15,540 nt of DNA from Escherichia coli (lineage in GTDB: Bacteria > Pseudomonadota > Gammaproteobacteria > Enterobacterales > Enterobacteriaceae): the NCBI RefSeq assembly GCF_003334335.1, contig NZ_QOWQ01000059.1; one strand, given 5' to 3'. Within the stretch, counting starts at the first letter, position 1; each line of letters starts with the position of its first letter. The translations under genes and the position numbers were made by a program. Shown one piece after another: positions 8,192 through 9,388 of the stretch. The notes below the pieces were generated by a model that saw only the letters and a list, made by a program, of their open reading frames with translations, was not told the origin of the DNA and made no database searches.

Positions 8192-9388
8192 ATGAAAACC
8201 TGGATATTTATCTGTATGTCCATAGCAATGTTGCTATGGTTTTTAAGTACGCTAAGACGTAAACCCAGTCAAAAGAAAGGCTGTATTGACGCCATTATAC
8301 CTGCGTATAACGAAGGCCCGTGTCTGGCGCAGTCACTGGATAATCTACTGCGTAACCCTTATTTTTGCCGGGTAATTTGCGTTAACGACGGCTCCACGGA
8401 CAATACCGAAGCGGTCATGGCGGAAGTCAAACGCAAATGGGGCGACCGCTTTGTTGCCGTCACGCAAAAAAATACCGGTAAAGGTGGTGCGCTGATGAAT
8501 GGCCTCAATTACGCCACCTGCGACCAGGTTTTTTTAAGTGATGCCGACACCTATGTTCCGCCCGATCAAGACGGAATGGGCTATATGCTGGCAGAAATTG
8601 AGCGCGGTGCCGATGCCGTAGGCGGCATTCCCTCTACTGCGTTGAAAGGCGCGGGTCTGTTACCGCACATCCGCGCGACCGTAAAGTTGCCGATGATTGT
8701 TATGAAGCGCACGCTACAGCAGCTCCTGGGTGGCGCACCGTTTATTATCAGCGGTGCCTGCGGGATGTTCCGTACTGATGTATTGCGTAAGTTCGGTTTC
8801 TCGGATCGTACTAAAGTCGAAGACCTTGATCTCACCTGGACATTGGTGGCAAACGGCTACCGTATTCGGCAGGCGAATCGCTGCATCGTATACCCACAGG
8901 AATGCAACAGCCCGCGTGAGGAGTGGCGTCGCTGGCGGCGTTGGATTGTGGGATACGCGGTCTGTATGCGCCTGCATAAAAGACTTTTATTTAGCCGCTT
9001 CGGTATCTTCAGTATATTTCCTATGCTGTTGGTTGTGCTTTATGGCGTTGGGATTTATCTCACTACCTGGTTTAATGAATTCATCACCACCGGGCCGCAT
9101 GGAGTGGTGTTGGCAATGTTTCCGCTTATCTGGGTCGGCGTAGTTTGTGTTATTGGTGCTTTTAGCGCCTGGTTTCATCGTTGCTGGTTGTTGGTGCCTT
9201 TAGCGCCGCTTTCCGTTGTGTATGTATTATTAGCTTATGCCATCTGGATTATTTATGGACTTATTGCCTTTTTTACTGGACGCGAACCTCAGCGCGACAA
9301 ACCCACCCGCTATTCCGCACTGGTGGAAGCGTCAACCGCTTATTCCCAACCTTCTGTCACAGGAACTGAAAAACTATCTGAAGCTTAA
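8192..9388 (+). CDS. yaiP: Membrane-embedded family-2 glycosyltransferase (synthase-like), 398 aa
   Basis: N-terminal TM helix, GT-A signatures (IIPAYNEG, VNDGSTDNT, DxD-like SDADTY), a Q-x-x-R-W-like EEWRRWRRW, then several C-terminal hydrophobic helices. Starts 10 nt after the yaiS stop. Confidence 0.9.
   Translation: MKTWIFICMSIAMLLWFLSTLRRKPSQKKGCIDAIIPAYNEGPCLAQSLDNLLRNPYFCRVICVNDGSTDNTEAVMAEVKRKWGDRFVAVTQKNTGKGGALMNGLNYATCDQVFLSDADTYVPPDQDGMGYMLAEIERGADAVGGIPSTALKGAGLLPHIRATVKLPMIVMKRTLQQLLGGAPFIISGACGMFRTDVLRKFGFSDRTKVEDLDLTWTLVANGYRIRQANRCIVYPQECNSPREEWRRWRRWIVGYAVCMRLHKRLLFSRFGIFSIFPMLLVVLYGVGIYLTTWFNEFITTGPHGVVLAMFPLIWVGVVCVIGAFSAWFHRCWLLVPLAPLSVVYVLLAYAIWIIYGLIAFFTGREPQRDKPTRYSALVEASTAYSQPSVTGTEKLSEA

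What the first reader, a model, noticed from the sequence alone, without database searches (positions are those of the whole stretch)
9237..9388. Ambiguous yaiX start: either a 152-nt out-of-frame overlap with yaiP or a non-canonical initiation codon
The only in-frame ATGs for yaiX (9237 and 9255) lie inside the yaiP 3' coding region and lack an obvious SD. Between the yaiP stop (9386..9388) and the first hexapeptide repeats there is no in-frame ATG, GTG or TTG; only CTG and ATT codons are present, the latter with a purine-rich AAAGAGAAAAAT stretch nearby. So yaiX either initiates within yaiP, uses a rare start, or depends on coupling or frameshifting from yaiP.
Basis: seen in the sequence. 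Interest (0 to 1): 0.4.

Follow-up and report, generated by a model that had tools for sequence, protein, structure and literature searches.

The report
yaiX start lies inside yaiP
The acetyltransferase gene yaiX most likely begins at an ATG 134 bases inside the preceding glycosyltransferase gene yaiP; this long overlap arose in enterobacteria when the older start and stop signals were lost, and the CTG start used in RefSeq cuts off a conserved part of the protein.

Summary
In the yaiX frame the only canonical starts are ATG 9237, ATG 9255 and TTG 9264, all inside yaiP, which stops at 9386-9388. None follows that stop before the hexapeptide repeats.

Comparison with 22 related loci largely resolves the ambiguity.
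- Outside Enterobacteriaceae, yaiX starts ATG/GTG-TGG-TGG ("MWW"). It has a GAGG/AAGG Shine-Dalgarno built from an AGG Arg codon of yaiP, and it overlaps the yaiP stop by 14 nt.
- In all 16 enteric loci that Shine-Dalgarno is gone (CGN). In E. coli the old start is CAC 9318 and the old yaiP stop is read through for 19 more codons.
- All 16 enteric loci keep an ATG 66 nt (63-69) upstream of the TGGTGG, equivalent to 9255, with an open frame.
- Between 9321 and 9365 substitutions follow the yaiX frame. This excludes the RefSeq CTG starts (9354, 9366) and the ATT codons.
- The lowest synonymous variability in all of yaiP lies at 9233-9287 in enterics. In non-enterics it lies at their own start region.

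Best reading: yaiX starts at ATG 9255 (230 aa), giving a real 134-nt same-strand overlap, and at least 68 nt whatever the exact start. No experimental start mapping was available. I rate it a new member of a known kind, of moderate interest.

The parts
8192..9388 (+). yaiP CDS (398 aa; GT2 glycosyltransferase with C-terminal membrane helices; stop TAA 9386-9388)
   Evidence: ORF list; RefSeq annotation; weak NCBIfam match to PgaC/IcaA
9255..9947 (+). yaiX CDS as proposed here (230 aa plus stop; frame +1 relative to yaiP)
   Evidence: ATG conserved in 16/16 enteric loci; selection signatures; Prodigal-type 230-aa form P0001 with 1737 member sequences
9255..9388 (+). 134-nt out-of-frame overlap of yaiP and yaiX
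   Evidence: Follows from the two CDS. Within E. coli, the segment 9237-9388 that contains it is the most conserved of three adjacent segments: 90% of records at >=99% identity, against 33% upstream and 77% downstream
9233..9287 (+). Proposed translation initiation region of yaiX plus its first ~11 codons (MDLLPFLLDAN). This is the lowest synonymous variability of the whole yaiP gene in enterics
   Evidence: Five lowest 8-codon windows all fall here; 0 of 216 contiguous upstream runs are as low; not seen in non-enterics. The 61 nt centred on 9255 fold at -3.9 kcal/mol against a mean of -13.3
9245..9249 (+). Weak Shine-Dalgarno-like TGGAT (Trp codon of yaiP plus the next base), 5 nt before ATG 9255
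   Evidence: TGG invariant and TGGAT/TGGGT/TGGGG in all 16 enteric loci; anti-SD pairing -3.1 to -6.7 kcal/mol
9237..9239 (+). Alternative upstream ATG (236-aa form); conserved only in Escherichia and one Citrobacter locus
9308..9310 (+). Relic of the older Shine-Dalgarno: the Arg codon of the yaiP 'TRY' motif is CGC here, but AGG/AGA (forming GAGG/AAGG) in all 7 non-enteric proteobacterial loci
9312..9314 (+). ATT, 9 nt before the TGGTGG. The same alignment column is ATG in four enteric loci and TTG in one. It is also where the RefSeq K-12 pseudogene fragment begins. This is the rival non-canonical start
   Evidence: local fold -17.5 kcal/mol and no Shine-Dalgarno
9318..9320 (+). CAC (His) at the position of the older ATG/GTG start codon
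   Evidence: Protein alignment; loci
9321..9326 (+). TGG TGG (Trp-Trp), nearly invariant in the family; residues 2-3 of most non-enteric homologues
   Evidence: The yaiP third positions inside it are invariant in both clades
9329..9385 (+). 19-codon C-terminal extension of yaiP beyond the older stop (position +8 from the TGGTGG). Poorly conserved in the yaiP frame and evolving under the yaiX frame
9354..9368 (+). CTG 9354 and CTG 9366, the starts used by RefSeq (197 aa WP_002430650; 193 aa WP_024183734)
   Evidence: Rejected by coding conservation upstream and by the lack of a properly spaced Shine-Dalgarno

Best explanation
yaiX is a functional gene whose translation starts inside yaiP, most likely at ATG 9255. 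This gives a 230-aa protein and a 134-nt overlap with yaiP, one base out of frame.

The arrangement still seen outside Enterobacteriaceae is an ATG/GTG-TGG-TGG start. It is preceded by a GAGG/AAGG Shine-Dalgarno made from an AGG Arg codon of yaiP, and it overlaps the yaiP stop by 14 nt, a layout that suits translational coupling. In the enterobacterial lineage that Shine-Dalgarno and the nearby yaiP stop are gone in all loci examined. The old start codon is gone too, although some loci keep an ATG or TTG a few codons upstream of the TGGTGG. yaiP now reads 19 codons further, and yaiX initiation moved 63 nt upstream, to an ATG formed by the Tyr-Gly codons (TAT GGA) of the last membrane helix of yaiP.

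Initiation there is probably independent rather than coupled. It would rely on an A/U-rich, almost unstructured stretch and a weak TGGAT Shine-Dalgarno-like element.

Shown: the sequence features and their conservation patterns. Inferred: that ribosomes actually initiate at 9255, and the order of the evolutionary steps.
For: 1. Family N-terminus. 49 of 120 database homologues start X-W-W and 6 more start 1-3 residues earlier. All 7 non-enteric proteobacterial loci and 2 candidate-phyla loci have ATG/GTG 3 nt before TGGTGG. In the 7 proteobacterial loci the yaiP stop lies at +8.

2. Translation must start upstream of 9321.
- In 9321-9365 variability peaks at yaiX codon position 3 (1.27 bits against 0.68 and 0.63).
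- Amino-acid identity there is 0.58 in the yaiX frame and 0.32 in the yaiP frame.
- Single-difference codon pairs are 237 synonymous: 89 non-synonymous in the yaiX frame, against 63:361 in the yaiP frame.
- AlphaFold2 models the Trp-Trp segment onward with pLDDT 77-88.

3. Upstream of 9321 the only canonical starts are ATG 9237, ATG 9255 and TTG 9264. The ATG equivalent to 9255 and an open frame down to the Trp-Trp occur in 16 of 16 enteric loci, and in 2 of 7 non-enteric loci, which matches chance. Under synonymous resampling of yaiP the per-locus probability is 0.05-0.65; the product over 10 non-redundant enterics is 2.4e-5, a rough figure because the lineages are related.

4. Synonymous third positions of yaiP.
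- In enterics entropy is 0.72 bits in 9254-9319 against 1.29 upstream (Mann-Whitney p = 8e-5). The gene-wide minimum lies at 9233-9287, and 0 of 216 upstream runs are as low.
- In non-enterics the same region is unremarkable (1.16 against 1.17, p = 0.5), and their minimum lies at 9293-9323, their own start region.

5. The older Shine-Dalgarno is gone. The Arg codon is AGG/AGA in 7 of 7 non-enteric loci and CGN in 16 of 16 enteric loci.

6. The 61 nt around 9255 fold at -3.9 kcal/mol against a mean of -13.3, which makes this one of the least structured stretches. The same holds in 8 of 10 enterics.

7. yaiX is under purifying selection: dN/dS 0.05-0.10.

8. Within E. coli the overlap segment is the most conserved of three adjacent segments.
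Against: - There are no experimental start-site data. The Ribo-RET preprint text does not mention yaiP or yaiX, and its tables are not held.
- The Shine-Dalgarno-like element is weak (-3.1 kcal/mol).
- The amino-acid conservation of the N-terminal extension is partly a by-product of reading the conserved yaiP motif TGREPxRDKPTRY one base out of frame.
- The low GC content and low structure around 9255 could follow from coding a membrane helix.
- The first 19 residues of the 230-aa form are predicted to be disordered, so there is no structural reason for them.
- Four enteric loci keep an ATG 6-12 nt before the Trp-Trp, and E. coli has ATT in that column. A second, weaker start near the old site is therefore not excluded.
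- The loci are phylogenetically related, so the p-values overstate independence.
Confidence: 0.68

Rival explanations
1. Translation starts at ATG 9237, giving the 236-aa form carried by KEGG and older GenBank records and a 152-nt overlap. It could act instead of 9255 or alongside it.
For: It is the first ATG after the in-frame stop at 9231. It is conserved in Escherichia and present in one Citrobacter locus. The local fold is weak, -6.0 kcal/mol. The constrained window reaches back to 9233.
Against: It is present in only 4 of 16 enteric loci, whereas the ATG equivalent to 9255 is present in 16 of 16. It has the weakest anti-SD pairing of the candidates, -1.6 kcal/mol. The constraint at 9233-9254 is equally well explained as the ribosome-binding region of 9255, and it persists in loci that lack this ATG.
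Confidence: 0.12
2. Translation starts at a non-canonical codon next to the old start site, ATT 9312, giving (M)PHWW. This would be a weakened descendant of the ATG that some enterobacteria keep in that column.
For: The column is ATG in L007, L020, L021 and L022, TTG in L019, and ATT or ATA elsewhere. The yaiP Tyr codon that supplies its 'AT' is TAT in 15 of 15 enteric loci. The RefSeq K-12 pseudogene alignment begins exactly at 9312. AUU is a proven E. coli start in infC and pcnB (10.1101/063800).
Against: - There is no Shine-Dalgarno: the AGG of non-enterics is CGC here.
- It sits in the most structured candidate window, -17.5 kcal/mol.
- AUU initiates at about 0.02-3% of AUG.
- It does not explain the constraint at 9233-9287 or the conserved ATG at 9255.
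- TAT is the commoner Tyr codon in these genes anyway (0.77).
Confidence: 0.08
3. The RefSeq model is right: translation starts at CTG 9366 (193 aa) or CTG 9354 (197 aa), just before the yaiP stop, so the overlap is short.
For: This is the PGAP annotation in thousands of genomes (P0008 has 1845 member sequences). The 9366 column is GTG, ATG or TTG in six other enteric loci. AGGAA lies just upstream.
Against: - The yaiX frame is under purifying selection upstream of these codons, at 9321-9365.
- The Trp-Trp motif is nearly invariant in the family and is confidently modelled.
- AGGA ends 1 nt before CTG 9366, which I judge too close for a Shine-Dalgarno.
- One enteric locus has GTA in that column.
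- CUG initiates at about 1-2% of AUG or less.
Confidence: 0.04
4. yaiX is expressed through yaiP, with no start of its own. Either a +1 ribosomal frameshift produces a YaiP-YaiX fusion, or ribosomes terminating at the yaiP stop re-initiate on yaiX.
For: The yaiX frame is +1 relative to yaiP. A T6 run at 9269-9274 would allow tRNA-Phe to re-pair after slipping. A frame-fused protein (P0032) exists in 27 assembled sequences. The non-enteric arrangement does look coupled.
Against: - There is no prfB-like signal. The codon after the T run is a common Thr codon, and GCU-UAA at the stop cannot re-pair in the +1 frame (read from the sequence).
- The yaiP stop position varies among enterics: +14, +29, +65, +68, +80.
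- The conserved ATG and initiation-region-like constraint at 9233-9287 would have no purpose under this model.
- Re-initiation would have to reach 66-131 nt backwards.
- P0032 also carries a second frameshift near its C-terminus, which suggests homopolymer sequencing errors.
- No GT2-LbH fusion appears among the 120 best homologues.
Confidence: 0.03
5. yaiX in E. coli is a decaying gene that lost its start codon and is no longer properly translated.
For: The old start and Shine-Dalgarno are gone. K-12 carries an IS2 insertion in the gene, and other strains carry IS1 insertions or frameshifts in the locus.
Against: - dN/dS is 0.05-0.10 against Citrobacter, Salmonella and E. whittamii copies.
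- The ORF region is covered at >=80% in 4464 of 5426 E. coli genomes.
- Repairing the K-12 pseudogene gave a clumping phenotype that also requires yaiP (PMC3531124).
Confidence: 0.04

Closest known systems
holD-rimI co-directional overlap of Enterobacteria (32-56 bp), reported as the longest real same-strand overlap (PMC2478687)
   Same: It is a same-strand, out-of-frame overlap conserved across enterobacterial genera. Both proteins are conserved, and the nucleotide sequence of the overlap is unusually conserved.
   Different: The yaiP-yaiX overlap is 134 nt with the best start, and at least 68 nt on selection evidence alone, which is beyond the 60-bp limit of that survey. Both gene ends differ in length from non-enteric orthologues. 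The survey's rule would flag that as a '5' and 3' extension' misannotation.
Short overlaps (4-14 nt) of adjacent operon genes with a Shine-Dalgarno embedded in the upstream gene, as used for translational coupling (my own knowledge of bacterial operons)
   Same: This is the arrangement of yaiP-yaiX outside Enterobacteriaceae: a 14-nt overlap with GAGG/AAGG 8-9 nt before the start.
   Different: In E. coli the Shine-Dalgarno, the start codon and the nearby stop have all been lost. The start is now 131 nt upstream of the yaiP stop, so termination-reinitiation coupling is implausible.
Overlap growth by loss and replacement of start or stop codons in unidirectional prokaryotic gene pairs (PMC3887535, abstract only)
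   Same: The same process is proposed here: the stop of the upstream gene was lost and the start of the downstream gene was replaced by one inside the neighbour.
   Different: Here both events occurred in one gene pair, and apparent intermediates survive: yaiP stop at +14 or +29, and an ATG 6-12 nt before the Trp-Trp. The new start region also shows a selection signature.
Non-canonical AUU starts of infC and pcnB in E. coli (10.1101/063800)
   Different: No conserved non-canonical codon with a properly spaced Shine-Dalgarno is present, and coding conservation extends upstream of the proposed CTG and ATT codons.
Left-handed beta-helix acetyltransferase domain of archaeal-type bifunctional GlmU enzymes (ST0452; PDB 2ggo, 5z09)
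   Same: YaiX residues 62-219 of the 230-aa form align to chain residues 241-398 (E = 8e-23). NCBIfam TIGR03992 and NF041173 match the same part.
   Different: YaiX has no nucleotidyltransferase domain. The Trp-Trp segment and the enteric extension lie outside the matched region. All NCBIfam scores are below the curated cut-offs.

Membership tests
Genuine same-strand overlapping gene pair | Both reading frames are open across the overlap | tested here: met
   yaiP is open to 9388 and the yaiX frame is open from 9234. The same holds in 16 of 16 enteric loci.
Genuine same-strand overlapping gene pair | The downstream gene's frame is under purifying selection inside the overlap | tested here: met
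   At 9321-9365 there are 237 synonymous against 89 non-synonymous codon pairs in the yaiX frame, against 63:361 in the yaiP frame. Variability is highest at the third position of the yaiX frame.
Genuine same-strand overlapping gene pair | The start codon is conserved among orthologues with the same architecture | tested here: met
   The ATG equivalent to 9255 is present in 16 of 16 enteric loci. This is more than synonymous resampling predicts.
Genuine same-strand overlapping gene pair | Synonymous variability of the upstream gene is reduced in the overlap | tested here: met
   0.72 against 1.29 bits (p = 8e-5). The gene-wide minimum lies at 9233-9287, and the effect is absent in non-enteric controls.
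Genuine same-strand overlapping gene pair | Experimentally mapped initiation site or protein N-terminus | not testable with these tools
   No start-site or proteomic data are reachable. The Ribo-RET preprint has no mention of these genes and no held tables.
Gene with a non-canonical start codon (infC/pcnB type) | Protein conservation begins at or after the proposed codon | tested here: not met
   For CTG 9354/9366 and ATT 9405/9411, coding conservation and the Trp-Trp motif lie upstream. ATT 9312 does lie upstream of the conserved region, so this feature does not exclude it.
Gene with a non-canonical start codon (infC/pcnB type) | A conserved codon with a Shine-Dalgarno at working distance | tested here: not met
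   AGGA abuts CTG 9366 at a spacing of 1 nt. The 9366 column varies (CTG, GTG, ATG, TTG, GTA). There is no Shine-Dalgarno before ATT 9312, and the window there is structured.
Programmed +1 ribosomal frameshift (prfB type) | A slippery codon followed by a stop or slow codon, with a stimulatory Shine-Dalgarno, conserved in position | tested here: not met
   No such motif is seen in the sequence. The yaiP stop position varies among enterics. The T6 run is followed by a common ACU codon.
Translationally coupled pair with a short overlap | The upstream stop lies within a few nucleotides of the downstream start | tested here: not met
   In E. coli the stop lies 131 nt downstream of ATG 9255. The feature is met only in the 7 non-enteric proteobacterial loci, with a 14-nt overlap.
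Hexapeptide-repeat (left-handed beta-helix) acyltransferase | Significant match to hexapeptide / LbH profiles and to solved LbH structures | tested here: met
   Precomputed Pfam PF00132, PF25087 and PF25084 on homologues; NCBIfam TIGR03992 at 1.8e-37, below its curated cut-off; PDB 5z09/2ggo at E ~1e-22; the AlphaFold2 model shows regular short strands with pLDDT above 90.

The most novel reading that the evidence does not exclude
The 21-residue N-terminal extension of YaiX and the 19-residue tail of YaiP were created together, de novo, in an ancestor of the enterobacterial copies. Each arose by reading the other gene's sequence out of frame. The first ~11 residues of the new YaiX extension (MDLLPFLLDxN) have since come under selection as peptide, for example as a contact with the membrane-embedded YaiP synthase.

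If so, this is a datable case of new coding sequence born inside a real same-strand overlap of more than 130 nt, a class that a systematic survey concluded does not exist.
Probability: 0.35. Interest if true: 0.55.

Novelty: new member of a known kind. Interest (0 to 1): 0.4.

Why it matters
1. Annotation. RefSeq gives this protein a CTG start and 193 or 197 aa in thousands of E. coli genomes, while other pipelines give 230 or 236 aa. The evidence here says the short forms remove a conserved Trp-Trp segment. Constructs and structure predictions based on them would be truncated.

2. Gene overlaps. [quoted passage not shown] This pair is a well-supported exception. At least 68 nt are translated in both frames, with the yaiX frame under selection, and apparent intermediate stages survive in Salmonella and Enterobacter. 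It is therefore a useful test case for rules that automatically trim long overlaps.

3. Function. yaiS-yaiP-yaiX-yaiO looks like a synthase-type exopolysaccharide operon: a deacetylase, a PgaC-like GT2, an acetyltransferase and an outer-membrane barrel. Repair of yaiX in K-12 gave clumping (PMC3531124). Knowing the true start is needed for any expression study.

Tried and rejected
- Amino-acid conservation of the N-terminal extension as proof of its translation. Rejected as confounded: DANLSATNPP is the conserved yaiP motif TGREPxRDKPTRY read one base out of frame, and similar strings appear in non-enteric loci where that frame is closed by stops. I replaced it with tests on yaiP synonymous sites, using a non-enteric control.
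- ATT 9405/9411 with the purine-rich AAAGAG, and CTG 9354/9366/9378. Rejected by coding conservation upstream.
- TAATG at the yaiP stop. This ATG (9388) is in the third frame, gives a 12-codon ORF, and is not conserved outside Escherichia and one Salmonella locus.
- An internal sigma-70 promoter or a known RNA element as the cause of the constrained segment. There are no promoter-like sites on either strand in 9050-9500 and no Rfam match in 8900-9700.
- Frameshift fusion (see the rival explanations). P0032 looks like homopolymer error.
- Literature on start-site mapping. The Ribo-RET preprint text has no yaiP or yaiX and its tables are not held. The yaiX overexpression paper used the 71-aa K-12 fragment and a cloned 236-aa form, which says nothing about the native start. 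The Ribo-seq paper that mentions yaiP only uses an antisense RNA inside it as a control.
- One search call failed on term length, and one script timed out and was rerun in two parts.
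Full report
**What is in the window.** The window is an Escherichia coli chromosomal segment. It carries yaiS (7511-8182), yaiP (8192-9388), the yaiX frame (open from 9234, stop 9945-9947), yaiO (9949-10722) and frmR-frmA-fghA, all on the + strand. Unlike K-12, it has no IS2 in yaiX; in K-12 the insertion lies near 9532-9539. A strong promoter-like site (TTGACA-18-TACAAT, 7262-7291) precedes yaiS.

**The observation.**
- In the yaiX frame the codons after TAG 9231 include ATG 9237, ATG 9255 and TTG 9264. No further ATG, GTG or TTG occurs until well inside the hexapeptide repeats.
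- yaiP stops at TAA 9386-9388, and the yaiX frame is +1 relative to yaiP.
ATT codons follow at 9405, 9411, 9426 and 9429.
- Pairing with the anti-Shine-Dalgarno sequence is weak at both ATGs.
- The ambiguity shows up in public annotation. RefSeq gives CTG 9366 (193 aa) or CTG 9354 (197 aa). Strains with GTG at 9423 get 174 aa. Prodigal-type calls give 230 aa from 9255, and KEGG gives 236 aa. The RefSeq pseudogene fragment in K-12 begins at 9312.

**What the family looks like elsewhere.**
- A protein search found 526 homologues. Most distant ones are about 206 aa and align from residue ~29 of the 236-aa form.
- Of the 120 listed, 49 begin X-W-W, 6 begin one to three residues earlier, and 21 have the long enteric form.
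- The Trp-Trp corresponds to TGG TGG at 9321-9326. The codon before it, the start codon elsewhere, is CAC in E. coli.
- A genome scan and contig look-ups gave 22 further loci.
- In seven non-enteric proteobacterial loci (Pseudomonas, Acinetobacter, Sphingomonas and MAGs), yaiP ends ...RDKPTRYxxVVx*. Its stop lies 8 nt after the first base of TGGTGG, and yaiX starts ATG or GTG 3 nt before it, giving a 14-nt overlap.
- In all seven, the Arg codon of the yaiP 'TRY' motif is AGG or AGA, which forms GAGG/AAGG 8-9 nt before the start.
- Two candidate-phyla loci lack an upstream yaiP but have the same M/V-W-W start with a Shine-Dalgarno of their own.
- By parsimony I take this arrangement as ancestral. 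That is an inference.

**What changed in enterobacteria.** I examined sixteen enteric loci: Escherichia, Citrobacter, Salmonella, Enterobacter, Superficieibacter, a plasmid-type E. coli copy and two assemblies.
- The Arg codon is CGN in all sixteen, so the Shine-Dalgarno is lost.
- The yaiP stop has moved to +14, +29, +65 (ten loci), +68 or +80.
- The codon before the Trp-Trp is no longer a start.
- All sixteen have an ATG 66 nt (63 or 69 with indels) upstream of TGGTGG, equivalent to 9255, with an open frame between.
- ATG 9237 is present in only four.
- Some loci keep an ATG 6-12 nt before the Trp-Trp (L007, L020-L022) or a TTG (L019). E. coli has ATT 9312 in that column.

**Where translation must begin.** The region 9321-9365 lies upstream of both RefSeq CTG starts. 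In twelve enteric loci it behaves as follows.
- Variability is highest at yaiX codon position 3: 1.27 bits against 0.68 and 0.63.
- Mean pairwise amino-acid identity is 0.58 in the yaiX frame and 0.32 in the yaiP frame.
- Codon pairs differing at one site are 237 synonymous : 89 non-synonymous in the yaiX frame, but 63:361 in the yaiP frame.

The whole stretch 9321-9386 shows the same pattern. The non-overlapping part of yaiX has dN/dS 0.05-0.10. An AlphaFold2 model of the 230-aa form has mean pLDDT 85.8. Residues 1-19 score below 50, but the Trp-Trp segment onward scores 77-88. So yaiX is a functional gene and its translation begins upstream of 9321. This alone makes at least 68 nt (9321-9388) translated in two frames.

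**Which start.** Amino-acid conservation of the extension (MDLLPFLLDANLSATNPPAIPH) cannot be used naively. Most of it is the conserved yaiP motif TGREPxRDKPTRY read one base out of frame. I therefore examined yaiP third-codon positions at columns where the yaiP residue is conserved.
- In enterics mean entropy is 0.72 bits in 9254-9319 against 1.29 in the rest of yaiP (Mann-Whitney p = 8e-5).
- In the non-enteric group the same region scores 1.16 against 1.17 (p = 0.5).
- The five lowest 8-codon windows of the whole enteric gene all fall in 9233-9287, about -22 to +32 around ATG 9255. None of 216 contiguous upstream runs is as low, and a non-redundant set of ten loci gives the same result.
- In the non-enteric group the minimum is at 9293-9323, which is their own Shine-Dalgarno and start.

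In each clade, then, the synonymous-site minimum of yaiP marks the yaiX initiation region that the clade appears to use.

Resampling yaiP codons synonymously gives a probability of 0.05-0.65 per locus that the ATG and an open frame both occur. All sixteen enteric loci have both, whereas 2 of 7 non-enteric loci do, as chance predicts. The product over ten non-redundant enterics is 2.4e-5, a rough figure because the lineages are related.

The 61 nt around 9255 fold at -3.9 kcal/mol against a mean of -13.3 for the two genes. The window is among the least structured in 8 of 10 enterics, whereas the window around ATT 9312 folds at -17.5. A TGG(A/G)T element lies 5 nt before the ATG in all enterics.

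Within E. coli, 90% of records are at least 99% identical to the window over 9237-9388. The figure is 33% for the 152 nt upstream and 77% for the 143 nt downstream.

**Mechanism proposed.**
- Shown: the loss of the old Shine-Dalgarno, start and stop; the conserved ATG at 9255; and the two selection signatures.
- Inferred: ribosomes initiate independently at 9255, on an A/U-rich unstructured stretch with a weak Shine-Dalgarno-like element, while other ribosomes read yaiP through the same 134 nt.
- Because the yaiP stop is 131 nt downstream of this ATG, termination-reinitiation coupling is unlikely in E. coli.
- It is unresolved whether the constraint on codons 2-11 of the extension is at the peptide level or the mRNA level.

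**Rivals.**
- ATG 9237 may be used as well in Escherichia, but it is not conserved.
- ATT 9312 is the most interesting rival. It sits in the column that is ATG in four relatives. However, it lacks a Shine-Dalgarno, lies in structure, would be very weak (AUU gives 0.02-3% of AUG; 10.1101/063800), and does not explain the constraint at 9233-9287.
- The CTG and downstream ATT starts are excluded.
- A +1 frameshift fusion has no supporting signal. The one fused database protein, P0032, looks like homopolymer error.
- Gene decay is contradicted by dN/dS and by the reported phenotype of repaired yaiX (PMC3531124).
- No sigma-70 promoter-like site or Rfam family accounts for the constrained segment.

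**Comparison with what is known.**
- YaiX is a left-handed beta-helix acetyltransferase related to the C-terminal domain of archaeal-type GlmU.
- YaiP is a PgaC-like GT2, with a score below the family cut-off.
- Overlap growth by replacement of start and stop codons is a described process (PMC3887535, abstract).
[quoted passage not shown] The longest real one it accepted was holD-rimI, at up to 56 bp (PMC2478687). By that survey's rule, yaiP-yaiX would be classed as a double-extension misannotation. The evidence here says it is real.
- I therefore rate it a new member of a known kind, not a new mechanism. Its practical value is for annotation, and its interest is moderate.

**Limits.**
- No experimental start mapping was reachable.
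- The entropy and resampling statistics ignore phylogeny.
- Locus L009 is labelled as an Ignatzschineria MAG but carries an enteric-type copy.

Noticed in passing
window 9354-9368 and 9423; loci L001-L003, L027: RefSeq gives at least four different starts for the same gene in different E. coli genomes. These are CTG 9366 (193 aa), CTG 9354 (197 aa), GTG at the 9423 column (174 aa, in strains with GTA>GTG) and a pseudogene fragment beginning at ATT 9312 in K-12. Prodigal-type calls use ATG 9255.
   Followed up: yes
window 9386-9426: The yaiP stop forms TAATG. This ATG (9388) is in the third frame and opens a 12-codon ORF (MLKRKIFRLQTR). TAATG is kept only in Escherichia and one Salmonella locus, so it is probably chance.
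   Followed up: partly
window 9269-9274; protein P0032: A T6 run lies inside the overlap. A database protein with 27 member sequences reads yaiP into the yaiX frame exactly here (...YGLIAF|LLDANLS...), as if one T were missing. It also has a second frame change near its C-terminus, which suggests homopolymer sequencing errors rather than biology.
   Followed up: partly
L010-L013, L016-L018, at the column of window 9308-9310: In non-enteric relatives the Shine-Dalgarno of yaiX is built from an AGG/AGA Arg codon inside the conserved yaiP motif TRY. This looks like codon choice in one gene being fixed by the ribosome-binding site of the next.
   Followed up: yes
window 9366 column in L005, L006, L008, L022, L023, L026: The codon that RefSeq uses as a CTG start in E. 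coli is GTG, ATG or TTG in six other enteric loci and GTA in one. It is a conserved hydrophobic residue of a predicted short helix (residues 36-41 of the 230-aa model). No usable Shine-Dalgarno precedes it.
   Followed up: partly
window ~9532-9539; locus L027: K-12 strains carry IS2 inside yaiX, splitting it into a 5' fragment and a 444-nt 3' ORF annotated as 'transferase'. Other strains carry an IS1 insertion (H1), a frameshifted yaiP (L001) or a truncated yaiS with ykiC annotated on the opposite strand (L001, L002).
   Followed up: no
window 7262-7291: A near-consensus sigma-70 promoter-like site (TTGACA, 18 nt, TACAAT; 11 of 12 matches) lies about 220 nt upstream of yaiS. It is a candidate operon promoter for yaiS-yaiP-yaiX-yaiO.
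   Followed up: no
window 9192-9208: A terminator-like hairpin followed by a T-rich run lies on the + strand inside yaiP, about 30 nt upstream of the yaiX-frame opening. One such site against 0.5 expected in shuffles, so it is probably chance.
   Followed up: no
L014, L015: In two candidate-phyla (Kaiserbacteria, Paceibacterota) loci the yaiX homologue is followed, not preceded, by a distant GT2 gene. The M/V-W-W start therefore exists independently of the overlap with yaiP.
   Followed up: no
E. coli genomes; locus L025: Some E. coli genomes hold up to 7 matching places and about 25-30 places are on plasmids. A diverged second copy of the whole yaiS-P-X-O cluster (about 65% YaiX identity) exists in E. 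coli, with the same overlap architecture (yaiP stop at +80).
   Followed up: partly
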